The translations under genes and the position numbers were made by a program. Shown piece after piece: positions 34,066 through 43,394 of a stretch of DNA of 64,000 nucleotides. The stretch lies in the NCBI GenBank assembly GCA_036276735.1, contig DASUOH010000031.1, positions 2,694-66,693 of the forward strand, written 5' to 3'. Below the pieces are notes generated by a model that ran no database searches, was not told where the DNA came from, and saw only the letters and a list, made by a program, of their open reading frames with translations. Position 1 is the stretch's first letter, and every line of letters begins with the position of its first letter. The DNA comes from Solirubrobacterales bacterium. Its GTDB lineage: Bacteria > Actinomycetota > Thermoleophilia > Solirubrobacterales > 70-9.

Positions 34066-34091
34066 AAGCAGAGGGCGAGCCCCCGGACCCC

Positions 34092-34116
34092 GTGACCTTC
34101 GGTTTCGTAGCCCGAG
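34092..34116. repeat. att-like partial copy of tRNA-Arg 3' region (outermost island boundary candidate)
   Basis: GTGACCTTCGGTTTCGTAG identical to 43283-43301 of the tRNA gene; the next 6 nt CCCGAG are identical to the flank of the 36146 copy. Confidence 0.6.
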
Positions 34117-34234
34117 CCGCTGGGTCGGCTGGGTTACGTGGAGCTGGGTTTTAAGCGGCCTCAGGCGAATAGAGTCCCGCTGGGATCGGCTGGAATCTGT
34201 GGGGCATGTTGCCCCATTTGTTGCCCCAGCAAGG

Positions 34235-34921
34235 TTAGGTGAGGAGATTGTCGATGCGAGCTCGGACTAGCCGAGCGCGACCGGCTCCCGCCGGGCCGTG
34301 GGAAGCGGTCGCACTTTGGACGGCGTAGTCGAAGTAGGGCTCCCCGCGAAGCTCGGCCAGCTCGTCGCGGATGTACGTGCGTAGGTCGGGTACTGCGGAC
34401 GCAACTTCTTCGATCAACTCAGGTCGGCCGTCGATCAGCGTGAGCACGTCGTGGATGTCGAGGCTGGGCAACAGGTCGCCCCCGCCCCGACCCTTCCAGG
34501 CACAGAGCTTCGTCGCAACGAGCGCCAGCGGCGCTGCGGCACGTATCTCCGCACCGGATTCGAGAGTGACCGTCACAGCGCTGGAGATCGCCTCGTCGTA
34601 CCAGGGATTGGAGAATCCGAGGATGTCGAGATCGGTCGGCATGACATCCAGAACGAGTTGCGGATCGGCGCTTCTCCACCGACAGATGACGGGCGCGCCC
34701 ATCGCCTCCTGAAGTCCCCGCTCGCGCAGTCGATCGCCAAGCTGGTGGTACTTCACACGGCTTGCCACCTCGCAGACCACATCGACATCTTCCGTCGCCC
34801 GCGTTGGAGGAGCGCCGGGCTCGGTAATCCAGAGGTGAACCGTGGCACCACCGACGAAAACGACCTCATCGAGCAGAGGCCCGAGAAGCGCCGCCGCAGT
34901 CTCCAACTGAAGTGCGCTCAC
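34235..34921 (-). CDS. nucleotidyltransferase-fold protein (AbiEii-like candidate toxin)
   Basis: 228 aa; VFVGGATVHLW...TRATEDVDVV (GG ... DxD) NTase signature; 4-nt overlap with upstream HTH gene. Confidence 0.6.
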   Translation of the reverse strand: MSALQLETAAALLGPLLDEVVFVGGATVHLWITEPGAPPTRATEDVDVVCEVASRVKYHQLGDRLRERGLQEAMGAPVICRWRSADPQLVLDVMPTDLDILGFSNPWYDEAISSAVTVTLESGAEIRAAAPLALVATKLCAWKGRGGGDLLPSLDIHDVLTLIDGRPELIEEVASAVPDLRTYIRDELAELRGEPYFDYAVQSATASHGPAGAGRARLVRARIDNLLT

Positions 34922-35445
34922 CGGCCTGCGACCACGGATCGCTCCCGCAACATCTTCGAAAAAAGATCTCCCGCTACCTTCCGGACCCGAACATCTCCGG
35001 CCCTGAGGCTGTCAAGCAAAGCGAGGACTTCACCGAGCTCCGGCCAATTCTCCACCGCCTCAGGTGCAGCAGAGTGCAGCGGCTCGATGGCCTGCCCCCG
35101 AACTCGCCCGTGGGCGTAGGGCCAGACCGGGGGCGGCTCGTCACCTGAGGAGCGGATCGCGGCCACCATCGGCTCCGCTGCCCAAGCCGCAGGCACGCCC
35201 GGCGTCAGCGCACCGAGCCGAGCGGGAGCAACAAAGCGCAATGCGTGAAGCGCGAACTCCTCGAAGTGCGGGAAATGAACTTCGCGACGGTCCACCGAGT
35301 ACAGATCCGCACCCTTCGCCCGCTCCAGCGCTCGCTGTACGACTGGGTGCGGAACATGGAGCCGCTCCGCAAGCGATCGGTAGCTCCAAGCCCCATCGTG
35401 GGCGAGCAGTCCGCTGAGGACATAGACATCGGAATCCTTGACCAT
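34918..35445 (-). CDS. winged-HTH protein (AbiEi-like candidate antitoxin/regulator)
   Basis: ATG 35445 (MVKDSDVYVLSG...); WSYRSLAERLHVPHPVVQRALERA HTH; A/T-rich operator-like region immediately upstream. Confidence 0.55.
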   Translation of the reverse strand: MVKDSDVYVLSGLLAHDGAWSYRSLAERLHVPHPVVQRALERAKGADLYSVDRREVHFPHFEEFALHALRFVAPARLGALTPGVPAAWAAEPMVAAIRSSGDEPPPVWPYAHGRVRGQAIEPLHSAAPEAVENWPELGEVLALLDSLRAGDVRVRKVAGDLFSKMLRERSVVAGR

Positions 35446-35456
35446 GACGAGAATTA

Positions 35457-35477
35457 GTGTATCAAGTATCAATACAC
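35457..35477 (-). promoter_or_regulatory. operator-like repeat upstream of the HTH/NTase pair
   Basis: GTGTAT-CAAGTATCA-ATACAC: 6-bp inverted arms enclosing a tandem 7-mer GTATCAA GTATCAA, in an A/T-rich stretch 12 nt upstream of the ATG. Confidence 0.4.
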
Positions 35478-35503
35478 AATACAGCGAAGCCTCGCTGAGT
35501 CGC

Positions 35504-36060
35504 TTACCTGGACCGCGGATCATCCGCCGCGTAGCGAGGCGCACACTCGGCATCTGGCCCGTTGAGCTGCCCGATCTGGATCGACCCGTCGTCCCAACCC
35601 CAGACCGAGAAACCGGCCGCCGCGAGTTCGTCAAGGACCGCGTCAAGCCTTGCTTTCGCCTCTGCGATGTCCATAGGTTCAACCAGCTCCTCAATCTCGT
35701 ATCCCGCCTCCGCCCTCCTCGCAAGGACATCAATCAACCCATCAGTGATTTGCTTACCGCTAGCCGTCTTGCCATAGGTCTTCCTCGCCGTCGATCTCAC
35801 AGACATCGCCAAGACGGCGGCGAGCTGGTCGCGTCTGAAGACCTTGACCTCGTCCTCGGGGAGCTGCTCGCGATGGGGAATCGCCAGCCCCTGGGCAGGG
35901 TTGTGGTGGATCAAACCCTCACGCTTCGCCGTCGCCAAGGCAACGCGCAGCGGGAATCACGGCATTGGCAATGGTGCGATCGCTGAGGCGTTTGCCCTGC
36001 TCTGCCTCCTCGGGAAGTGGTGGTGCGCGTACGCGCGGATCAGGAATACGAACTTGCCCC
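35504..36060 (-). pseudogene. tyrosine-integrase remnant fused to a fragment of an RHH antitoxin gene
   Basis: Reads ...LSDRTIANAV (frameshift) RVALATAKREGLIHHNPAQGLAIP (integrase N-domain / core junction), then GKTASGKQITDGLIDVLARRAEAGYEIEE resembling 36281..36565; no catalytic R-H-R-Y region. Confidence 0.45.
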
Positions 36061-36113
36061 AGGCGTTGCCCCATGGGCAATTTTCGCACTGTTCGAGTGA
36101 CCCGCCGAAACGC

Positions 36114-36140
36114 GCAAACCCGCTTGGAAAGCGGGTTTGC
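36114..36140 (-). terminator. perfect 12-bp hairpin next to the tRNA 3'-end copy
   Basis: GCAAACCCGCTT-GGA-AAGCGGGTTTGC; on the minus strand it lies just downstream of the tRNA-end copy and is followed by GCGTTTCGG. Confidence 0.5.
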
Positions 36141-36145
36141 AAGGA

Positions 36146-36187
36146 CGCGCCTGACAGGATTCGAACCTGTGACCTTCGGTTTCGTAG
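36146..36187. repeat. att site: 42-nt perfect copy of the tRNA-Arg(ACG) 3' end
   Basis: CGCGCCTGACAGGATTCGAACCTGTGACCTTCGGTTTCGTAG identical to 43260-43301; the sequence beyond it cannot form an acceptor stem, so it is not a second tRNA. Confidence 0.85.
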
Positions 36188-36280
36188 CCCGAGAGGCTGC
36201 CGCGCTACCAAGCCGTTAGCGGGGGCGATGCGACCGAGATGAGACCTTCGCGGCGCCGTCGATCCCCGAGTCGGGCTAGC

Positions 36281-36565
36281 TCATCCTGCTTGCAGGTACT
36301 CGCGAAGCGCCTTACGGATGATTGACGATCTGGGTTCATGCTCGCGCTCGGCCCGCCTGTCGAGAGCCTGCCGTAGATCGGGATCGAGCCGAACCGACTC
36401 GACGCCGGCGGGAGCCGAGCCCATCGCGGGACGACCAGGGCGACGGCGCAGCGTCTGCTCGACGTCATAGCCCTGCTCTGCCTTCTCGGCAAGCTTCTCA
36501 ACCAGATCGTCGGTGATCGGCTTGCCGCTGGCCGTCTTGCCGTGAGGCTTCTTAGCCATTTTCAT
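36281..36565 (-). CDS. ribbon-helix-helix (CopG/BrnA-like) antitoxin candidate
   Basis: 94 aa; C-terminal RLDPDLRQALDRRAEREHEPRSSIIRKALREYL RHH pattern; overlaps upstream small gene by 14 nt. Confidence 0.6.
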   Translation of the reverse strand: MKMAKKPHGKTASGKPITDDLVEKLAEKAEQGYDVEQTLRRRPGRPAMGSAPAGVESVRLDPDLRQALDRRAEREHEPRSSIIRKALREYLQAG

Positions 36566-36797
36566 CTCCCGGGAGGAGTCGCCGGTACTTAGGTCTCATC
36601 CTCATTGCATGGATCGCCAGCTCCGACCCATCGTCTCGAACGATCGAGACGACCTCAAGCAGCTCCGTGTTCCGAGCTGGTCCTAGGTAGAGCCGCGTGT
36701 CGTCTTGCTGGGCATCCATGCTCATCGCGTTGTCAATTGCATGCCTAATGTCCTCGTCGGCAATACCGTGCTTCCGGGCCGACGGGTGGATCTCCAT
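36552..36797 (-). CDS. small BrnT-like toxin candidate
   Basis: 81 aa, MEIHPSARKHGIADEDIRHA...LLEVV...AIHAMRMR; recalled as a conserved actinobacterial small protein paired with RHH genes; family assignment tentative. Confidence 0.5.
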   Translation of the reverse strand: MEIHPSARKHGIADEDIRHAIDNAMSMDAQQDDTRLYLGPARNTELLEVVSIVRDDGSELAIHAMRMRPKYRRLLPGDENG

Positions 36798-36836
36798 GCG
36801 AATATCGTATTACGAATCTCAGATAGATTAGCGCGC

Positions 36837-37310
36837 ATGGCAATCCCCTTGAAGGGTTTGGTGGCGGGCATGCTGATTGGGATTGCCGGCGTGCTGCTGG
36901 TCGGCCATATCGCAGACCGCAATCAGGGCGTGCCTGAGCAGCTCGCTGAGGCGCTTGGCTGCTCGACCGGATCGAGCGGGCTACGCCCCTCCTCCGCAAG
37001 GGACGCACAGCGCTACTTCGGCCGCGATGACGGTTTCTCCAGGTTCGCTGCGACCAATGCGGAGCGAATCCTCGACATCAGCGGATGCGATCCACTCGGC
37101 CCCGCAACTACCTATCTCGAATTTGGACCTCGGACGAACATGAACCGTGTGCTCAAGACGCTCGACAACTTCGGCGCCGTCTGCGTCGTCGGCCAAGCCG
37201 TCTTCGAGGGCAAAGTGCTCGACGGGCGGGTGCACTTCGAAGAGCTATGCGACACGGTCGGAGGTGAGTTGAAGGTTCTCTCGCCGTCGAAGCCAACACG
37301 ACACGACTAG
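36837..37310 (+). CDS. membrane-anchored hypothetical protein
   Basis: ATG 36837 (MAIPLKGLVAGMLIGIAGVLLVG TM) then about 130 aa with no recognised domain; divergent from the TA pair across an A/T-rich 39-nt spacer. Confidence 0.5.
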   Translation: MAIPLKGLVAGMLIGIAGVLLVGHIADRNQGVPEQLAEALGCSTGSSGLRPSSARDAQRYFGRDDGFSRFAATNAERILDISGCDPLGPATTYLEFGPRTNMNRVLKTLDNFGAVCVVGQAVFEGKVLDGRVHFEELCDTVGGELKVLSPSKPTRHD

Positions 37311-37333
37311 GACACCGCGACTTTTCCGAAGAC

Positions 37334-37403
37334 CGGTGTCGTAGACCGAGAGGCTCGGCCTTGGCAAGCCGCTGGGCGGCGATCCTGTGACCAGGATGCG
37401 ACC
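37334..37403. repeat. degenerate att-like copy (tRNA anticodon-arm segment plus element arm)
   Basis: CGGTGTCGTAGACCGA matches tRNA 43291-43306 at 15/16; following GAGGCT...CAAGCCGCTGGGCGGCGAT...GCGACCG parallels the flank of the 36146 copy; GACCAGGATGCGACC (37389-37403) recurs 14/15 at 43138-43152. Confidence 0.45.
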
Positions 37404-37509
37404 GCCCGGTCTCAGGTCCAGCTCAAAGCGGGGGCAGGCGACGACGAAGGTCGTCGTAGGTGGAAGGTGGAATTAACGCTGATCAATTGAGTCTTCCTCT
37501 AGCGATACG

Positions 37510-38910
37510 GTGCAAGAAATGCCTGACCCAGCCGAGCCCCGACTCGCTGACTTCCTCCGCAGCCCAAGAGAGACGCAGGACAGGGAGCTCAAGCGATGGC
37601 TAGATCTCAGCGAGCCTGCAAATCGAGGCAAGGTGGCGCGGCACCTTATGGCCCTCGCCAACTTCGGCGGAGGATGGCTGCAATTCGGATTCAAAGAGGA
37701 AAGCGATGGATCATTTGCCCACGAGAGAACCGAGTGCCCAGACCCCAGCAGGTATTCGACGGATGCGGTCAACGCAATCGTCAGGCGACACGCGGAGCCA
37801 CGCTTCCATTGCGAGGTGCATTGGCAGAGCTGCAACGAGGGATGCCCGGGGCCACATGCCTTGATCCGCGTTCCAGGCGGCGACAAGGTCCCAATTGTGT
37901 GCAGCAAGGGAGGCCCCGGTCCAAAGAACGATCCTGAGAAAGGCGCCGTGTACGACCGCCTCCCCGGCCCGGAGAGCAGCAAGATCATCGAGCCGAACCA
38001 CTGGCATGACTTGCTTGAGCGTTGCTTGCAGGCACGGCATGACGCGCTGGTAGAGAGCGTGCGAGATGCGATCGAACTCTTAGGCCGGCGAGGTCTCGCT
38101 AGGGCTCTAGGCGCCGAAGTGGGGAGCCCTACCAGCGACGGGGACGATGTTCTAGGAAAGTGGACCGCAGACTCAAGAGTTCGTCTCGATCAACTGCTTC
38201 ATGAGCAGAGCGAGTATGCCCGACTGTACGAGCAAGGTTGGTGGTCGGTCTCGTATGCAGTGGATCCTCCGCCCGATCCACCGCTCCAGCTCAGGCGGCT
38301 GAAAGACCTCATCCTCAGCACCGCAGGAAGGGAGACTGGCTGGCCTGCGTGGCGCTGGCCTTCAAGTAGCGAGCACCAGCCTCGCTTAAACGATGACGTA
38401 ATTGAATGCTGGATGGCAGGTGGGGTTTTCACCGATGCTGCGCATGCGGACTTCTGGAGAGCATCCACCAAAGGCCTGTTCTACCTTCTTCGAGGCTACG
38501 ACGAGGACGCCATCGCAGAGTTGTCTCCGCGACACAGCAGTATCGCCCCTGGAAGCATGCTTGATCCCGGAATCGCGGTCTGGAGGATCGGTGAGTGCGT
38601 TCTGCATGCTGAGAGGATGTGCCGCCAGCTCAATGCCGAGAAGGTCCATTTCGATATTCGTTGGGAGGGACTTAGCGGACGCAGGATCAGCGTGCTAGAG
38701 CCAGCGCGTCGCGACTATTGGTCCGGACCCTCTCAGGATGACAACGCTTCCGTGAGGTTGACGATTGACCGTGATCTCATCAGCAGCACGTTGCCGAAGA
38801 TTGTCCATGAACTGACCACGCCCCTCTTTGTTCACTTCGATTTCTTCGAAATGCCGCTAGAGGATGTAAACCGCGAAATGAGCCGGATGCGAGGGCAGCC
38901 TGAAACGTAG
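37510..38910 (+). CDS. AlbA_2/Schlafen-like domain protein with unassigned C-terminal domain
   Basis: 466 aa; RETQDRELKRWLDLSEPANRGKVARHLMALANFGGGWLQFGF and GAVYDRLPGPES fit the AlbA_2 (formerly AAA_4) pattern; C-terminal about 270 aa unrecognised; 53-55% G+C in counted lines. Confidence 0.65.
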   Translation: MQEMPDPAEPRLADFLRSPRETQDRELKRWLDLSEPANRGKVARHLMALANFGGGWLQFGFKEESDGSFAHERTECPDPSRYSTDAVNAIVRRHAEPRFHCEVHWQSCNEGCPGPHALIRVPGGDKVPIVCSKGGPGPKNDPEKGAVYDRLPGPESSKIIEPNHWHDLLERCLQARHDALVESVRDAIELLGRRGLARALGAEVGSPTSDGDDVLGKWTADSRVRLDQLLHEQSEYARLYEQGWWSVSYAVDPPPDPPLQLRRLKDLILSTAGRETGWPAWRWPSSSEHQPRLNDDVIECWMAGGVFTDAAHADFWRASTKGLFYLLRGYDEDAIAELSPRHSSIAPGSMLDPGIAVWRIGECVLHAERMCRQLNAEKVHFDIRWEGLSGRRISVLEPARRDYWSGPSQDDNASVRLTIDRDLISSTLPKIVHELTTPLFVHFDFFEMPLEDVNREMSRMRGQPET

Positions 38911-38930
38911 CTCTGGTTCTGGCTGGTCCC

Positions 38931-40139
38931 TTGCCAATAGTCCTCTGCCCAGACCCCATGCAGCTCTTCGACAAGATCGAGCGTCACGACCCCTCCCCTT
39001 GCAAGGACTTAGAGGACAGCTTTGCCTTCCTGAACCGCGTCAACACCCCGTTCTGGGGGGAGGTACGAAGCCTGCTAGAAGAGTGGTTTTCTCGATATCC
39101 GCTGCATGAGGGAAAAGACTTATGGAAAGCGTTCAGATCCCGACTCCCAGGGCAGCACTACGGAGCCTGGTGGGAGCTTTATCTCCACGAGTTGTTTTCG
39201 AGGCTGGGCTATGAAATTGAGATCCACCCCGAGCTAGCCGACTCTTCGAAAAGGCCGGATTTCATGCTGCGGCTCGACGATTCTCTGCTTTATGTTGAGG
39301 CAGCCGTTGTCTTCTCGGGCATAACTACGAAGCGCGATCGGAATCCTCCCCGTTGGCTGCTCGACGCCATCAACCGGGCAAGTAGCCCCGACTTCTTTGT
39401 GAGGCTGGTGCGAGTAGAGCCAGGGGAGCCTCGGCAACTCAAGAGGAATGAGATCGTTACTCCACTTGAATCCTGGCTGTCCAGCCTTGACCACGAGGAG
39501 GTCTCGGCTTCCCATAAGAACGACGAAGGCCTACCGGAAGAAACGATCCGCTGCCGAGGCTGGGGGATGGTTTTTGAAGCCTGGCCAGTCAAACCAGAGG
39601 CTCGGGGTAGAACCGATAGGCGCCTGCTGGGAATCGGCCCAGCCCAGACCGGCTTTGTGAATGACGCTCGGCAGTTGAGAAGCACTCTGAAGAAGAAAGC
39701 GGGACGTTTTGGCCGCCCAAAGATCCCGATGGTGACGGCGACCCTCTCTCTTTCGGGCTTTATGGAGCAGCTAGATATTGAGCAGGCTCTTTATGGGGAT
39801 GAGGCCTTTCAGGTTCCCCGCGACGGCGAGGGGGCAGCCGCTCTTCTAAGGAGGCGAAATGGCTTCTGGACCGCTTCTGATGGCCCCCAGAACCAGCGCG
39901 TTTCGGCCGTTCTAACTGCCGTCGGTCTTCATCCGGCTAACGTCAACAAGGTGGCGCCCTCCCTCTGGTTGAACCCCTGGGCGGACTACCCGCTAGAAGA
40001 GCCGTGGCCTTTTTCCCGCTTCACGGCATCTGAGCGAGGCGAGATCCTGGGCGAGGAAGAGCATCCCGATATGGCCGCGCTATTTGATCTCTCTGCCGGC
40101 TGGCCCGGTAGTGACCCATTCCCTCGGAATAGGACTTAA
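38931..40139 (+). CDS. hypothetical protein with PD-(D/E)xK-nuclease-like N-terminal segment
   Basis: 402 aa (ATG 38958 also possible); WWELYLHELFSRLGYEIEIHPE..KRPDFMLRLDDSLLYVEAAVV resembles the E...D...ExK core but lacks the Lys; remainder unassigned. Confidence 0.6.
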   Translation: MPIVLCPDPMQLFDKIERHDPSPCKDLEDSFAFLNRVNTPFWGEVRSLLEEWFSRYPLHEGKDLWKAFRSRLPGQHYGAWWELYLHELFSRLGYEIEIHPELADSSKRPDFMLRLDDSLLYVEAAVVFSGITTKRDRNPPRWLLDAINRASSPDFFVRLVRVEPGEPRQLKRNEIVTPLESWLSSLDHEEVSASHKNDEGLPEETIRCRGWGMVFEAWPVKPEARGRTDRRLLGIGPAQTGFVNDARQLRSTLKKKAGRFGRPKIPMVTATLSLSGFMEQLDIEQALYGDEAFQVPRDGEGAAALLRRRNGFWTASDGPQNQRVSAVLTAVGLHPANVNKVAPSLWLNPWADYPLEEPWPFSRFTASERGEILGEEEHPDMAALFDLSAGWPGSDPFPRNRT

Positions 40140-40161
40140 CGAAAGATTTCGTGCGTGCTAC

Positions 40162-41252
40162 TCATCCAATAGCTGAGCGAACAGAGCCAAAGCTCGTTCC
40201 CACGGCATGCGTGTAACGCGCAAGCATCGTCTCCACGCGATGCCCAGCGATCTCGGCTAGGTCCGCGTCGTTGACGCCGGCGGCTCGGAGGTGCGTGACA
40301 TAGCTGTGCCGGCACTCGTGGGGGCGGATGTCTAGACCGGACGCCCCCTGGGCCGGCTTCCAGAGGTCGCGGTAGAAGTTGCGCTCACGCCACATGCGGC
40401 CGGTCGGGGTTGTGAAGAGGAGATCGCAGTCGGAGCCGTTGAGCCGGATCTGCGCTTCGAGCATCCAGGCGAGGGTCGCCGGGACCGGAACGACGCGGCC
40501 GGCGTCGGGCTGGCCGTGGTCGATCTTGGTGCCCTCGAGGATCACTCCCTCGTGCGCGGTGCGGCGAACTTGGAGCGTCTCGCCGTCGAAGTCTTCGCGG
40601 CGCAAGGGAAGAACCTCCCCCAGTCTCAGGCCGCAATCGGTGAAGACGCAGACCATCGCCTCGTAGCGGCCGGCCGCCTTAGCGAAGCGGTGCATCTCCT
40701 CGAAGCTGAAGACACGGATCGGCCGGGGCTTCTTCTTGGCCCTCGGATCGTTAGCCCTGATGCGGACGCCCTTGAACGGATTGAGGTCGCAGACTTCGTC
40801 CGTGATCGCGTCCTCTGCCATCGCCGAGAGCGAGCGCAGGATGCCAACCGCTCCCGTGGTGGCTCGGCCTTCGACTCGGAGCATGTGGTCGACCATGGCC
40901 AGGGCGTGACGACGGCGCAGCTCGCGCATCGGCCAGTCCTTAGTCGCATGCCCTCGATCTCCACCTCGGCGACGCGGCCGATCCGGTGCTCATTGGTGGC
41001 GTTGGTCCGCTCCGAGCGCGGGTGCCGCTCGGTCCAGGTGGCGAAGTAGTCGCCGAGGGTGTCGGGCCGATCTGAGAGGCCGTACGCCTCGTCAATCGCC
41101 TTCTGCGCTTCGCCCTTTCGTTTGAAGGTCCCCTTGCCTCGATTCCAGCTCGGCTTGGCGACACGCCGCTTGCCGTCTCTCCCCGTGTAGCGGGCAAGCC
41201 ACACGATCTCGCCGGAGGGGTTGCGGCGTTTGACTGGAGCCTCGCGCCTCAT
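40162..41252 (-). pseudogene. int: tyrosine recombinase/integrase split by a frameshift near 40938-40943
   Basis: N-terminal frame (40626..41252 ORF) ...RIGRVAEVEIEGMRL; C-terminal frame (40162..40929 ORF) KDWPMRELRRRHALAMVDHML ... HECRHSYVTHL ... GHRVETMLARYTH (R-H-R-Y type catalytic region). Confidence 0.8.
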
Positions 41253-41443
41253 GCCGCCTCGTCCCTGTGGCGAGCAAGGAAGTCCTCGACGTCGGCGGGG
41301 TCGATTCGTCGCGCGGCCCCGAGCTTGTAGCTCGCTAGCTCGCCTCGCCTGATCCAGTTGCGGACCGTGCGGTCGGAGACGGAGAGGTAGTTGGCGAGGC
41401 TGCGCTCGGTGAAGAAGCGAGGCTGGCCGGCTTTCCGTCCCAT
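41249..41443 (-). CDS. xis: excisionase-family (MerR-type) HTH DNA-binding protein
   Basis: 64 aa from ATG 41443 (RBS GGGGGAGG); LANYLSVSDRTVRNWIRRGELASYKLG; stop overlaps the int start. Confidence 0.75.
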   Translation of the reverse strand: MGRKAGQPRFFTERSLANYLSVSDRTVRNWIRRGELASYKLGAARRIDPADVEDFLARHRDEAA

Positions 41444-41775
41444 GCCTCCCCCATCACATTCACGCCGCGAGTGCCCCGGCCTGTTCGTCCACGTTCCGTC
41501 AGAGGCCACACCGGGAGGGGCGTTCCCACCTGCCGAACGCGCGGCGCAGCCGCGCCACAATCGGCAGTGGGACGCCCGACCGAAGGTCAGGTGATGAGCT
41601 GAGCTGCCCAACCCGGTCTCAGGCACGAAAAGCGAACACCGGTTCGGGTTCATAATGTGTCGGGGGTCAGAGGTTGGAGTTGAGGGAAGCCCCCTGGGAT
41701 CGCCAAGGCGGCTCGAACTGGCCCTTCCGTGTGGTCCTTCGGCTGGGCTTCCGACGAGTGCTGCTTGGTGGACAG

Positions 41776-42090
41776 TCATGGGGTGTTGGGTCTTCCGGTT
41801 CCTTTTGTCTTGACTGGGTTCGGGCCGGTCTGGCCCCAGCCGCCAACCCGCGCGTGACCCGGCCGCCAGGCAATCCCCTCGAACAGCTCCCCGACCGGCA
41901 CCTCCAGAGCCCCGGCGAGCTTGGCCAGCGTGTCGATCCGCGGCAGACGCCCACCGCGCTCAAGGAGGCCGATCTGCGTCCTGTGAAGCGAGGCCCGAAT
42001 GCCAAGCTCTTCCTGGCTGATGCCAGCTCGCCGGCGTGCCCGGATGAGGTTCTCGCCGAAGCGCTGAGCAACAGCGTGCGAGTCCCTCAT
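41776..42090 (-). CDS. XRE-family HTH regulator
   Basis: 104 aa from ATG 42090; FGENLIRARRRAGISQEELGIRASLHRTQIGLLERG. Confidence 0.75.
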   Translation of the reverse strand: MRDSHAVAQRFGENLIRARRRAGISQEELGIRASLHRTQIGLLERGGRLPRIDTLAKLAGALEVPVGELFEGIAWRPGHARVGGWGQTGPNPVKTKGTGRPNTP

Positions 42091-42386
42091 CGGCCCATCA
42101 CCAGCCGCTCGAAGTGAAGGGCCGCTCGCGTCGGGGCGACTAGAACTCCGTTGCTCAGGAGCAAGCCGGCCGCGACGAGGTCTCGAACGGCTGAGGCGAG
42201 GACGACCGCAGCGGAGAAATCGCTGCCATCGCACAGCAGCTCTCCGGCTAGCTCAGGCAGGCTGAGTTGCTCCGGGTGTTCGCGCAGGACGACGGCGAGC
42301 ACCAGCCGCTGCGCCTCTCGGGGCCGCGTCTGCGCCGTCACCTCGCGATGGCGCGAGCGTTGACGCCAACCGCCGACCCAAATCAC
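42087..42386 (-). CDS. small winged-helix-like protein, tandem paralog 2
   Basis: 99 aa; LVLAVVLREHPEQLSLPEL...SAVRDLVAAGLL...APTRAALHFERL, about 45% identical by eye to the upstream gene; 4-nt overlaps on both sides. Confidence 0.55.
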   Translation of the reverse strand: MIWVGGWRQRSRHREVTAQTRPREAQRLVLAVVLREHPEQLSLPELAGELLCDGSDFSAAVVLASAVRDLVAAGLLLSNGVLVAPTRAALHFERLVMGR

Positions 42387-42676
42387 TCTGCCTCCAGTCG
42401 GCGGAAGCGAAGCGCGGCAAGGGTCGGCACGACGGCCTCGTCCTGGCGGCGGACCAGGCCGGCGGCGGCCAGGTCGCGAACCGCGCGCCCGACCGCGTCT
42501 CTCGTCGCGAAGTCGTCTGCGTCGGGGTAAAGCGCTCGGTGGATCTCCGCGACGGTGGCTTGGTCTGGATGCTCGGTGAGGACAAAGCGAAGGACCGTGC
42601 GTTCTGTACTAGCGTCTTCAGCGGCTGGCGATTCGGGGCCGCACGACTCGCGGTCCGTAGGGTCTGGACTAGCCAT
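42383..42676 (-). CDS. small winged-helix-like protein, tandem paralog 1
   Basis: 97 aa; TVLRFVLTEHPDQATVAEI...RAVRDLAAAGLV...VPTLAALRFRRL. Confidence 0.55.
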   Translation of the reverse strand: MASPDPTDRESCGPESPAAEDASTERTVLRFVLTEHPDQATVAEIHRALYPDADDFATRDAVGRAVRDLAAAGLVRRQDEAVVPTLAALRFRRLEAE

Positions 42677-42843
42677 GAGGAGCTATGCCTCCTTGTGGTC
42701 AGGCGGCCCGTCGTGTTAGCCCACGGCGGGTCGCCGCTTCTTGGAGCCGGCGCATCGCTACCGTTCCCGCTGCGGCCGGCCTGGGTCACCTGTGCCGGTC
42801 GCCACGGGGCCGGCGTTCCAGCGCGCGGCCCCACTTATGTTTG

Positions 42844-43137
42844 ATGTCGCAGGCTATCACGCTTTCCCGACATATCTTGAAACCGACTGGACGAAAAACG
42901 CCTCACCCCCAGCCCGCCCTAGGTCAGGCGATTCGAGAGCTGCGCCAGAAGCGCGGTCTCAGCCTCGAAGCCGTTGCGGCGAAAGCGGGACTGGCTCTCA
43001 ACACGCTCTCCCTAATCGAGCGCGGCGAGGCCAACCCGACCTGGCAGACGGTCAAGGGGATCGCGGCCGCCCTCGACGTGTCGATTGCCGAGATCGCCAA
43101 GCGCTCGCTCAAGTTCGAGGATGCGTCTCGAAAATGA
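42844..43137 (+). CDS. XRE-family HTH regulator (cI/Cro-like), divergent from the wHTH operon
   Basis: 97 aa from ATG 42844; LGQAIRELRQKRGLSLEAVAAKAGLALNTLSLIERGEANP. Confidence 0.8.
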   Translation: MSQAITLSRHILKPTGRKTPHPQPALGQAIRELRQKRGLSLEAVAAKAGLALNTLSLIERGEANPTWQTVKGIAAALDVSIAEIAKRSLKFEDASRK

Positions 43138-43259
43138 GACCAGGATGTGACCACGAGGCCGCGGAACGCTTCGGAATCGGCGGGAAGCTAGATCAGACGG
43201 AAGCCGAGCATCTGGCTCTGCACCGGGAAACGTGCGGCGTCCGAGGGTACGCAGCGGAA

Positions 43260-43333
43260 CGCGCCTGACAGGATTCGAACCTGTGACCTTCGGTTTCGTA
43301 GACCGACGCTCTATCCAACTGAGCTACAGGCGC
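43260..43333 (-). tRNA. tRNA-Arg (anticodon ACG)
   Basis: Reverse complement GCGCCTG-TA-GCTC-AGTTGGATA-GAGC-G-TCGGT-CTACGAA-ACCGA-AGGTC-ACAGG-TTCGAAT-CCTGT-CAGGCGC-G folds as a cloverleaf; no encoded CCA. Confidence 0.92.
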
Positions 43334-43394
43334 GGGAGCGGGGAAGCTTCCCCGGAGAGGGGATTCTAGGGGTCGGGAGGCGGGGCCGCCGAAA

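What the first reader, a model, noticed from the sequence alone, without database searches (positions are those of the whole stretch)
37510..40139. Low-GC two-gene cargo cassette (AlbA_2/Schlafen-like + PD-(D/E)xK-like) on the tRNA-Arg island: candidate uncharacterised defence system
Two co-directional ORFs of 466 aa and 402 aa, 20 nt apart, form the cargo of the integrative element. They lie between the degenerate att-like copy at 37334 and the 3' end of the integrase, which is convergent with a 22-nt gap. Three 60-nt lines I counted gave 53% G+C (39181) and 55% (38401) inside the cassette, against 68% in a core line (44701), so the cassette looks horizontally acquired. ORF A starts with a segment that fits the AlbA_2/Schlafen-type domain: ETQDRELKRWL...VARHLMALANFGGGWLQFGF...GAVYDRLPGPES. 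It lacks the HATPase_c_4/wHTH tail usually attached to that domain and instead has about 270 aa I cannot assign. ORF B has an N-terminal stretch (ELYLHELFSRLGYEIEIHPE..KRPDFMLRLDDSLLYVEAAVV) resembling the E/D/ExK core of restriction-endonuclease-fold proteins, but the Lys is absent; about 250 further aa are unassigned. Schlafen/AlbA_2 and PD-(D/E)xK modules recur in phage-defence systems, and the neighbourhood (tRNA-integrated element, several TA-like pairs) is typical of a defence island. I do not recognise this pairing as a named system.
Basis: partly seen in the sequence, partly recalled or inferred. Interest (0 to 1): 0.8.

Follow-up and report, generated by a model that had tools for sequence, protein, structure and literature searches.

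The report
Two stacked single-gene defence candidates
The two neighbouring genes are real and look like anti-virus defence genes, but they are not a two-gene system: one belongs to the recently described bacterial Schlafen tRNA-cutting defence proteins, and the other belongs to a large unstudied family of putative nucleases, and the two lie side by side only in this island.

Summary
There are two co-directional ORFs: A at 37510/37519-38910 and B at 38931/38958-40139. Their G+C is 58-59%, against 69% for the window. They sit next to a tyrosine integrase in a tRNA-Arg island of a Solirubrobacterales MAG.

The interpretation as a two-gene system fails. I checked 88 loci encoding A relatives and 89 encoding B relatives, including the closest ones at 63% identity. 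None carries both genes, and neither gene has any conserved neighbour.

A is a prokaryotic Schlafen (pSlfn). Its N-terminal domain has the AlbA_2/Slfn fold and an invariant catalytic Ex4ExK motif (E21, E26, K28). Its C-terminal ~260 aa form a strongly conserved module that elsewhere is fused to TIR or AbiEi_2 domains, so it is probably the sensor or regulator.

B belongs to a large unannotated ~395-aa family (5151 clusters at 50% identity). Only a ~50-aa PD-(D/E)xK core is recognisable, and it is remotely related to the E. coli single-gene systems PD-T7-5 and PD-T7-1. D110, E123 and a distal K256 are invariant, while the canonical Lys is missing.

Relatives of both genes lie among known defence systems such as CBASS, Pycsar, Avs, RM and Lamassu.

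Verdict: two independent single-gene defence candidates stacked in one cargo slot. Interest is modest.

The parts
37519..38910 (+). Gene A (463 aa from ATG 37519; the longest ORF starts at GTG 37510): prokaryotic Schlafen-type protein, NCBI HEX5763153.1 'hypothetical protein'
   Evidence: AF2 model pLDDT 90.9
37570..37989 (+). A residues 21-160: AlbA_2/Schlafen nuclease-fold domain
   Evidence: Pfam PF04326 at residues 21-128, E=0.0026. Profile against PDB: CbCash 9ylu 1.5e-7, SLFN13 5yd0 2e-5. Foldseek: 2kyy, 5yd0, 9o0d, 7ksp
37570..37593 (+). ETQDRELK = the Ex4ExK catalytic motif of Schlafen RNases (E21, E26, K28)
   Evidence: Translation. Invariant in 41 homologs. Motif definition in PMC13056530
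38122..38907 (+). A residues 205-466: conserved C-terminal module (CTD), the putative sensor/regulator. Motifs: TGWP, ECW, DxAHxDFWR, LRGYxED, WRxGE, GLxGR, FDFF
   Evidence: Alignments A1 and A4. The same module is fused to TIR_2 and AbiEi_2 elsewhere. Only weak TBP/AdoMetDC-like fold hits
38958..40139 (+). Gene B (393 aa from ATG 38958; the longest ORF starts at TTG 38931): member of a large unannotated ~395-aa family, NCBI HEX5763154.1 'hypothetical protein'
   Evidence: AF2 model pLDDT 90.0
39156..39320 (+). B residues 76-130 (402-aa numbering): PD-(D/E)xK-like core with H76, E82, H99, P109-D110-F111 and E123-A-A. The canonical Lys is absent
   Evidence: Translation. PADLOC PD-T7-5 hit by 51 of 51 family members and PD-T7-1 by 47 of 51. 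Foldseek top hits are all PD-(D/E)xK nucleases but weak. D110 and E123 are invariant in 84 diverse members
39696..39698 (+). B K256 (LKKK-AGRFG): the only other strictly invariant residue of the broad family, and a candidate relocated catalytic Lys (inference)
40162..41252 (-). Tyrosine integrase, convergent with B. Its N- and C-terminal parts are in different reading frames (frameshift near 40940-40950)
   Evidence: Pfam Phage_integrase E=3.7e-15. The homolog in L125 is in a single frame. Sequence
43259..43334 (-). tRNA-Arg(ACG), the integration target. Its 3' 48 nt (43259-43306) form one att copy
36145..36192 (+). 48-nt direct repeat of the tRNA-Arg 3' end (98% identical): the distal att of the 7.1-kb element that carries A and B
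34068..34115 (+). Third, more degenerate att copy. It bounds an older remnant (34116-36144) that holds an AbiEii gene and its partner

Best explanation
The cassette is two unrelated, self-contained candidate immunity genes sitting side by side in the integrase-proximal cargo slot of a 7.1-kb tRNA-Arg integrative island.

Gene A is a prokaryotic Schlafen. Its C-terminal ~260-aa module probably senses an infection cue or otherwise holds the enzyme off (inferred). On activation, the N-terminal AlbA_2/Slfn RNase, which uses the Ex4ExK site, cuts tRNAs and shuts down translation, limiting phage yield. This mechanism is inferred from characterised pSlfn5, Cash and human SLFN11/13.

Gene B is a one-protein nuclease candidate from a large unannotated family. 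It has a helical N-terminal region, a PD-(D/E)xK-type metal-dependent nuclease core (E82, D110, E123; the Lys is possibly supplied by K256) and a further ~150-aa C-terminal region of unknown fold. It most likely cleaves nucleic acid of an invader, or of the host during abortive infection, as proposed for the single-gene PD-(D/E)xK systems PD-T7-5 and PD-T7-1.

Shown here: the folds and motifs, the independence of the two genes, and their defence-island and mobile-element contexts. Inferred: the substrates, the triggers and any phage protection.
For: Independence of the two genes:
- No locus encodes both A and B, among 88 A loci (L001-L083, L171, L172, window) and 89 B loci (L084-L170, L173, L174 and so on); tblastn, called or annotated genes for the later loci. 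Clustering of flanking ORFs found no family shared by more than 4 loci.
- The closest A relative, P0002, is convergent with an integrase across a 19-nt gap, with no B between them.
- The closest B relative, P0053, is convergent with an integrase 83% identical to the window's. Upstream of it lie an M78 peptidase, a DUF4411 protein and a 247-aa ORF, not A.

Gene A:
- Ex4ExK is invariant.
- The profile matches the tRNase CbCash across the catalytic region at E=1.5e-7, and also SLFN13, SLFN11 and SLFN12. The fold matches too.
- pSlfns are experimentally shown single-gene defences with fused sensors (PMC13056530; PMC13552941; PMC13462974).
- The CTD is a swappable module, also joined to TIR_2 (E=3.6e-16) and to AbiEi_2.
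- Neighbours of A relatives include Avs3, Pycsar, Lamassu, PARIS AriA, type III and IIG RM, and PDC-S11.
- Relatives occur on plasmids and near the genome ends of temperate Burkholderia phages.

Gene B:
- All 51 aligned relatives hit PD-T7-5 (best 2e-8) and 47 hit PD-T7-1.
- Every top fold hit is a PD-(D/E)xK nuclease.
- D110, E123 and K256 are invariant in 84 diverse members.
- The family has 5151 clusters at 50% identity, and its best-scoring members are nearly all full length at ~390-400 aa.
- Neighbours include dCTP deaminase, CBASS, type I RM, IetAS, Qat, DRT, mads, PDC-S39 and PDC-S66.
- Relatives lie on plasmids, one directly after a complete type III CBASS.
Against: - No functional data exist for either family member.
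- A's own Pfam score (18.7 bits) is below the PF04326 threshold of 25.3.
- The CTD is unusually conserved across phyla and carries many invariant charged residues. That is atypical for a fast-evolving phage-protein sensor, so it could be an enzyme or a ligand or nucleic-acid binder instead.
- B's structural matches are individually non-significant (E 0.007-0.6) and cover only ~50-60 residues.
- B lacks the canonical Lys, so it might be catalytically inactive or might use a different chemistry.
- The defence-neighbourhood counts have no matched background control. Some relatives of both genes sit among housekeeping genes.
- A and B share similar GC (59% and 58%) and are close together with no terminator found between them. 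Co-transcription, and functional interplay within this one island, cannot be excluded.
Confidence: 0.65

Rival explanations
1. One reading: A and B form one cooperative two-gene defence system. For example, the Schlafen-type protein could act as sensor or RNase and the PD-(D/E)xK protein as DNase effector, needing each other.
For: The genes are co-directional and 20-47 nt apart, with no terminator-like site between them. Their GC and GC3 are similar. Both are defence-like.
Against: They are never adjacent in any other locus examined, including the closest relatives of each. Each family is found alone in many unrelated contexts. The two families differ greatly in the number of relatives recovered: 51 full-length A hits and 341 CTD hits in the word-index searches, against 5151 B clusters in the exhaustive profile search. 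pSlfns are established as single-gene systems (PMC13056530).
Confidence: 0.07
2. The genes serve the mobile element rather than host immunity. They would be addiction or stabilisation toxins, or inter-element competition factors, that kill or arrest cells when the island is lost or when another element enters.
For: Both genes sit next to integrases in several related islands. TA-like pairs (RHH, AbiEii, HicAB, PIN) are frequent neighbours. Relatives occur on plasmids and prophages.
Against: No cognate antitoxin-like small gene is conserved next to either gene. Many relatives lie in chromosomal defence islands among RM, CBASS, Avs and Pycsar systems. Tested pSlfns protect against phages (PMC13056530, PMC13552941).
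Confidence: 0.15
3. A is a nucleic-acid-binding regulator rather than an RNase, as suggested by PGAP names such as 'AlbA family DNA-binding' or 'ATP-binding protein'. B is an inactive PD-(D/E)xK relic or a DNA-repair or recombination accessory.
For: Database names of A relatives. B lacks the canonical Lys. B's structure matches are weak.
Against: The catalytic Ex4ExK of A is invariant across bacteria and archaea and aligns with the catalytic motifs of CbCash and SLFN13. In B, D110, E123 and K256 are the only strictly invariant residues of a very large family, which argues for a maintained active site. The defence-island contexts also argue against this.
Confidence: 0.1

Closest known systems
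Prokaryotic Schlafen defence proteins (pSlfn; e.g. RorSlfn5 and EcoSlfn7, Perez Taboada et al. 2026, PMC13056530; the E. lactis Schlafen, PMC13552941)
   Same: A single polypeptide with an N-terminal AlbA_2/Slfn domain carrying Ex4(E/D)xK, joined to a different C-terminal domain. Located in defence islands and on mobile elements. The paper lists 55 architectures, including a 'TBP-like' class (1.5%) and 17% unannotated. A's CTD gives weak TBP/AdoMetDC-like fold hits.
   Different: A's C-terminal module is not the Ig-like, DUF262 or HisKinase domain of the tested proteins. No member with this CTD has been tested as far as I could find. I could not confirm which pSlfn class it belongs to, because the supplementary tables are not held.
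Cash (CRISPR-associated Schlafen; CbCash, PDB 9ylu; PMC13462974)
   Same: The best sequence-profile match of the A family in the PDB (E=1.5e-7, over A profile positions 10-139), covering the Ex4DxK/Ex4ExK region. It is a tRNase effector switched on by a fused sensor.
   Different: Cash uses a Csx15 Rossmann-like cA4 sensor and works with type III CRISPR. A has an unrelated CTD, and no CRISPR or cyclase lies nearby.
Human SLFN11/SLFN13 and the SAMD9 AlbA_2 tRNase domain
   Same: Fold of the nuclease domain and the catalytic motif.
   Different: The eukaryotic proteins have two lobes in one chain plus helicase or other domains. A has a single Slfn unit, so it would need to oligomerise (inference).
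PD-T7-5 and PD-T7-1 (single-gene E. coli anti-phage systems with PD-(D/E)xK domains; Vassallo et al. 2022, as tabulated in PMC10952713)
   Same: The only defence models that B and all its relatives hit. Single-gene PD-(D/E)xK proteins of 346-452 profile positions.
   Different: The match is confined to ~45-85 residues of the nuclease core (e.g. profile positions 57-99 of 346). The rest of B is unrelated. B is not a member of either family.
Classical PD-(D/E)xK nucleases (Hjc, EcoRV, Bax1, the R2 RLE domain)
   Same: Helix-E, strand-PD and strand-E topology of residues 76-127. These are the top Foldseek hits.
   Different: E-values are only 0.02-0.6. The third motif is E-A-(A/T/S/V) rather than (D/E)xK. 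About 75 aa N-terminal and 150 aa C-terminal have no match.

Membership tests
Prokaryotic Schlafen (pSlfn) defence proteins | AlbA_2/Slfn (PF04326) nuclease-fold domain | tested here: met
   Foldseek hits to 2kyy, SLFN13 and the SAMD9 tRNase at probability 1.0. Profile against PDB: CbCash 1.5e-7, SLFN13 2e-5. The Pfam hit of the window protein itself is below threshold (18.7 against 25.3 bits), but many homologs carry a precomputed PF04326 hit.
Prokaryotic Schlafen (pSlfn) defence proteins | Catalytic Ex4(E/D)xK motif | tested here: met
   E21-TQDR-E26-L-K28, invariant in 41 homologs. It aligns with the motifs of CbCash and SLFN13.
Prokaryotic Schlafen (pSlfn) defence proteins | Fusion to a separate putative sensor domain in one polypeptide | tested here: met
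   The ~260-aa CTD is confidently modelled and conserved, and is portable to TIR_2 and AbiEi_2 proteins. That it acts as a sensor is inferred.
Prokaryotic Schlafen (pSlfn) defence proteins | Location in defence islands or on mobile elements | tested here: met
   In a tRNA-Arg island here. Neighbours of relatives include Avs3, Pycsar, LmuB, AriA and RM systems. Relatives occur on plasmids and in temperate phages. There is no matched background control.
Prokaryotic Schlafen (pSlfn) defence proteins | tRNA cleavage and phage protection | not testable with these tools
   Needs expression, phage challenge and tRNA sequencing.
PD-(D/E)xK nuclease superfamily (for B) | Core alpha-beta-beta-beta fold with an acidic residue in helix 1, D at the start of strand 2 and (D/E)xK in strand 3 | tested here: inconclusive
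   The secondary-structure order fits (H75-91, E95-98, E111-115, E118-127). E82 is nearly invariant, and D110 and E123 are invariant. The third-motif Lys is replaced by A/T/S/V. Foldseek hits are all of this superfamily but weak.
PD-T7-5 / PD-T7-1 | Full-length match to the family model | tested here: not met
   Only profile positions 57-99 of 346 (PD-T7-5) and 168-210 of 452 (PD-T7-1) align. The same holds for relatives from Acinetobacter, Pseudomonas and Mycolicibacterium.
   No locus among 88 A loci and 89 B loci holds both genes. 34 of the first 84 B loci have at least 1.5 kb of upstream sequence.
CBASS effector (considered for B) | B is the only effector-like gene of an operon with a CD-NTase | tested here: not met
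   The two CBASS operons found next to B relatives are complete on their own: cyclase-HORMA-TRIP13-NucC, and cyclase-E2-1TM effector. No cyclase lies in the window island.

The most novel reading that the evidence does not exclude
The C-terminal module of A may be a previously undescribed, deeply conserved switch domain, sensing a small ligand or a nucleic acid such as tRNA. Evolution has attached it to three different growth-arrest effectors. These are a Schlafen tRNase (the A family), a TIR domain (Bathyarchaeia and others), and the AbiEi partner of AbiEii nucleotidyltransferase toxins (Actinomycetes/Solirubrobacterales). It also recurs next to AbiE pairs (window, L172, L082, L176). Its many invariant charged residues (E299, D309, H312, D314, R317, E332, D333, R359, E362, R391) point to a defined pocket rather than a fast-evolving phage-protein sensor. 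Separately, B would be the founding member of a new, very widespread single-gene nuclease defence family with a D-E-distal-K active site.
Probability: 0.3. Interest if true: 0.6.

Novelty: new variant of a known kind. Interest (0 to 1): 0.38.

Why it matters
If the reading is right, this island shows how integrase-proximal cargo slots collect interchangeable single-gene immunity modules. Related islands with an 83%-identical integrase, or with 76-79%-identical AbiE genes, carry A or B but never both.

It yields two testable leads. The first is a Schlafen architecture whose conserved C-terminal module is shared with TIR and AbiEi proteins. That could reveal a common trigger for three effector types. 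The second is a large ~395-aa family (over 5000 clusters at 50% identity) with no Pfam or NCBIfam model and a non-canonical PD-(D/E)xK site, repeatedly found beside known defence systems.

It does not provide a new multi-gene system.

Tried and rejected
- Conserved-neighbour search around 167 loci, by all-against-all BLAST clustering of flanking ORFs. Nothing was shared by more than 4 loci once near-identical haloarchaeal copies were removed.
- B as a CBASS effector. Rejected because the adjacent CBASS operons already have NucC or 1TM effectors.
- Homology between A's CTD and B. None found (hhalign probability 0.2).
- Pfam and NCBIfam for B: no hit. PADLOC for the A family: nothing meaningful.
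- B profile against PDB sequences: only chance-level hits.
- B against phage genomes: no match.
- BFVD fold search for B: only short nuclease-core hits.
- Rfam on the island: only the tRNA.
- Promoter and terminator scan: nothing above the shuffled expectation.
- The supplementary tables of the pSlfn papers are not held, so I could not assign A to a numbered pSlfn class.
- Literature search for the accession numbers of A, B and three B relatives: no paper.
- Model coordinates are not exposed, so I could not measure whether K256 reaches the D110/E123 site.
Full report
**1. Observation**

The window holds two co-directional ORFs, 37510..38910 (466 aa, GTG) and 38931..40139 (402 aa, TTG), 20 nt apart. 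A convergent integrase ORF ends at 40162. An exact look-up shows the deposited proteins start at M4 of A (ATG 37519, 463 aa, HEX5763153.1) and M10 of B (ATG 38958, 393 aa, HEX5763154.1). Both are annotated 'hypothetical protein' in a Solirubrobacterales MAG. Homolog N-termini (M-x-LFD) agree with the B start.

The composition claim holds and is stronger when computed over whole genes. A is 59.4% GC (GC3 0.66) and B is 58.0% (GC3 0.65). The integrase is 66% (GC3 0.82), an adjacent host gene is 72.7% (GC3 0.95), and the window is 69.3%.

**2. The island**

ARAGORN and Rfam find a full tRNA-Arg(ACG) at 43259-43334 (-) and a partial copy at 36146-36215. The 3' 48 nt of the tRNA are repeated at 36145-36192 (98%) and, more degenerately, at 34068-34115. 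A 20-mer from this repeat occurs three times against 0.01 expected.

The element carrying A and B therefore spans 36193-43258. Its content is:
- an RHH protein plus a small ORF;
- a 201-aa ORF;
- A and B;
- the integrase;
- an HTH_17 excisionase-like gene;
- XRE-type regulators.

An older remnant at 34116-36144 holds an AbiEii nucleotidyltransferase and its partner. The integrase's N- and C-terminal halves are in different frames, whereas a 49%-identical homolog is in one frame. This indicates a 1-nt indel near 40940-40950, or an assembly error.

**3. Are A and B a pair?**

I fetched these loci:
- 80 genome loci encoding A relatives;
- 80 metagenome loci encoding B relatives;
- contigs for the closest relatives of each;
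- three plasmid loci for B.

tblastn with A and B against all of them found no locus with both genes. The count was 83 A-only and 84 B-only at that stage, with 34 B loci having at least 1.5 kb upstream. The later loci were checked through their called or annotated genes and do not change this. Clustering of all flanking ORFs found no neighbour family shared by more than 4 loci.

The closest relatives are the most telling. P0002 (63% identical to A) is convergent with an integrase across a 19-nt gap, with nothing in between. P0053 (63% identical to B) is convergent with an integrase 83% identical to the window's. Upstream of it lie an M78 peptidase, a DUF4411 protein and a 247-aa ORF instead of A.

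So related islands use the same integrase-proximal slot for either gene.

**4. Gene A**

The Pfam hit to SLFN_AlbA_2 is sub-threshold (E=0.0026, 18.7 against 25.3 bits, residues 21-128). A 41-sequence profile matches PDB chains CbCash (9ylu, E=1.5e-7), SLFN13 (2e-5), SLFN11 and SLFN12. The AF2 model (pLDDT 90.9) hits the AlbA_2 domain 2kyy, the SLFN13 N-domain and the SAMD9 tRNase/DNA-binding domain at Foldseek probability 1.0.

Residues E21-x4-E26-x-K28 (ETQDRELK) are invariant in all 41 homologs. They align with the catalytic motifs of CbCash and SLFN13.

This is the Ex4(E/D)xK motif that defines prokaryotic Schlafen nucleases. Perez Taboada et al. (Nat Microbiol 2026, PMC13056530) report the following:
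- 5,930 pSlfns in 55 domain architectures, 97% of them fused to other domains;
- 70% lie within 10 kb of a known defence gene;
- two tested proteins protect E. coli;

Two further papers add support. Cash is a cA4-activated tRNase (PMC13462974). An Enterococcus Schlafen with an unannotated C-terminus gives abortive-infection defence (PMC13552941). A is therefore a member of an already named class of single-gene defence proteins.

**5. A's C-terminal module**

Residues ~205-466 are confidently modelled. Their only fold hits are weak ones to TBP and AdoMetDC (E 0.016-0.1). This may correspond to the 'TBP-like' class (1.5%) of the pSlfn paper, but I could not verify that.

The module is strikingly conserved across bacteria and archaea: 47% mean column identity over 16 sequences, including relatives in Actinomycetes, Terriglobia, Xanthomonas, cyanobacteria, Dehalococcoidia and haloarchaea. 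Its motifs are TGWP, ECW, DxAHxDFWR, LRGYxED, WRxGE, GLxGR and FDFF.

It is also portable. The same module is fused to other N-termini:
- a TIR_2 domain in a Bathyarchaeia MAG (Pfam E=3.6e-16), and in P0186 and P0235;
- a wHTH-AbiEi_2 N-terminus in five Actinomycetes/Solirubrobacterales loci;
- other unassigned N-termini.

Module swapping between effector types is the hallmark of a sensor or regulatory domain, so I assign it that role by inference. However, the many invariant charged residues suggest a defined ligand or nucleic-acid pocket, or even catalysis, rather than a rapidly evolving phage-protein sensor.

**6. Gene B**

B has no Pfam or NCBIfam family. The only hits in any library are PADLOC PD-T7-5 (E=8e-6) and PD-T7-1 (0.0023), over residues 79-129. 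All 51 aligned relatives hit PD-T7-5 (best 2e-8) and 47 hit PD-T7-1. So do plasmid-borne relatives from Acinetobacter, Pseudomonas and Mycolicibacterium. In every case only the core aligns, at most profile positions 27-115 of 346. PD-T7-1 and PD-T7-5 are single-gene E. coli defence systems with PD-(D/E)xK domains (PMC10952713; PMC10270631).

The AF2 model (pLDDT 90.0) has no significant match in PDB or BFVD. Even so, the top hits are uniformly PD-(D/E)xK nucleases aligned over ~50-60 residues: Hjc, the R2 RLE domain, EcoRV, Bax1, Can1, phage restriction enzymes and resolvases.

The motif layout fits: helix H75-91 with E82, strand 111-115 preceded by P109-D110, and strand 118-127 with E123. A relocated Lys is therefore plausible but unverified.

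The family is large. An exhaustive profile search finds 5151 clusters at 50% identity with E<=1e-3 and 2094 at E<=1e-30. Among the 150 best-scoring, nearly all are ~390-400 aa and match end to end.

**7. Genomic contexts**

For B, I took 147 neighbouring ORFs within ±3.6 kb in 21 non-redundant loci. They include strong PADLOC matches to:
- dCTP deaminase (3e-116) and a CBASS cyclase (3e-103);
- PDC-S39, type I RM, IetA/IetS, QatA/QatC, PDC-S66, mads and DRT;
- integrases and HEPN proteins by Pfam.

Some housekeeping genes are also present.

On A. baumannii plasmid pWM98-2, the B relative follows a complete type III CBASS (cyclase-HORMA-TRIP13-NucC) after a 3-nt gap. In a Solirubrobacteraceae MAG it sits beside a cyclase-E2-1TM CBASS and a HicAB pair. 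Both CBASS operons have their own effector, so I rejected the idea that B is a CBASS effector.

For A, 147 neighbours in 22 loci include Avs3 (1.5e-288), Pycsar (PycC, PycTIR), LmuB, AriA, type III and IIG RM, PDC-S11 and PDC-M21. A relatives also lie on haloarchaeal and rhizobial plasmids, and near the genome ends of temperate Burkholderia phages (phiE125 gp67, phi1026b gp78). I had no matched background for these counts, so they are qualitative support only.

**8. Mechanism**

For A, I propose that the CTD holds the Slfn RNase inactive until a cue is sensed. The Ex4ExK site then cleaves tRNA, and translation arrest limits phage production. The fold, the motif and the modularity are shown here. 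The substrate, trigger and oligomeric state are inferred from pSlfn5, Cash and SLFN11/13.

For B, I propose a self-contained, metal-dependent nuclease using D110 and E123, with a possible contribution from K256. The flanking N- and C-terminal regions would provide target recognition or regulation. The conservation pattern and the core similarity are shown here. Everything else is inferred.

The two genes act independently. Overall confidence is about 0.65. Confidence specifically that A and B are not an obligate pair is about 0.85-0.9.

**9. Novelty and score**

The proposed 'uncharacterised two-gene system' is not real as a system. A is a new member, or an untested architecture, of a known kind. 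B is an unannotated family whose only link to known defence proteins is a short nuclease core.

The more interesting by-products are the portable CTD shared by Schlafen, TIR and AbiEi proteins, and the size and defence-island habit of the B family. I rate the finding 'new variant of a known kind', with interest 0.38.

Noticed in passing
L003-L012, L072 (whole loci, 17.3 kb each): The 17.3-kb region around the A homolog is 99.9-100% identical in assemblies of six haloarchaeal genera (Halorussus, Halobaculum, Haloarcula, Natronomonas, Haloparvum, Haloplanus), about 99% identical in Halosegnis, and mosaic in Haloarcula japonica. The gene also lies on Haloarcula marismortui and Halobaculum roseum plasmids. 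This is either very recent plasmid spread across genera or cross-contamination of assemblies.
   Followed up: partly
window 34235-35733; L172:52-1298; L082:7353-7904; L176:5001-8152; L061/L068/L071/L073/L076: A's C-terminal module is repeatedly linked to AbiE-type toxin-antitoxin genes. It is fused to AbiEi_2 in five actinobacterial loci, four of which share a downstream ~282-aa gene. A CTD protein (P0200) sits directly upstream of an AbiEi_2 gene plus a 275-aa gene. Homologs 76-79% identical to the window's AbiEii/partner genes lie immediately upstream of A homologs in two related contigs. This may be a functional link or shared ancestry.
   Followed up: partly
window 40930-40950 (- strand): The tyrosine integrase is split into two overlapping ORFs in different frames (41252..40626 and 40929..40162). 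An intact homolog (L125) reads through in one frame. This is a probable 1-nt frameshift, which would immobilise the island, or a MAG assembly error.
   Followed up: partly
window 34068-34115, 36145-36192, 43259-43306: Three copies of the tRNA-Arg 3' end define a tandem array: a 2-kb remnant with an AbiEii pair, and the 7.1-kb element with A and B. The island has accreted at least twice at the same tRNA.
   Followed up: yes
window 36281-36797 (-) and 36705-37310 (+): An RHH_1 (CopG-type) protein of 94 aa overlaps by 14 nt an 81-aa ORF with no clear family, which looks like a TA-like pair. A 201-aa ORF with a likely membrane helix overlaps the latter on the other strand. None of these has a conserved link to A or B.
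   Followed up: partly
L082:9526-11418; L081:7317-7757: Close A homologs (58-59% identical) sit next to an OLD-family AAA_15/TOPRIM nuclease and two N6_N4 methyltransferases in one contig, and next to a PIN toxin and an integrase in another. This shows the variable cargo around this gene.
   Followed up: no
L175:5001-5780: A stand-alone copy of the CTD (P0190, 259 aa) has 1.3 kb of uncalled sequence upstream. It lies in a region with an MmeI-type RM, PLD-nuclease and PDDEXK_1 genes. It is possibly a decayed fusion or a split system.
   Followed up: no
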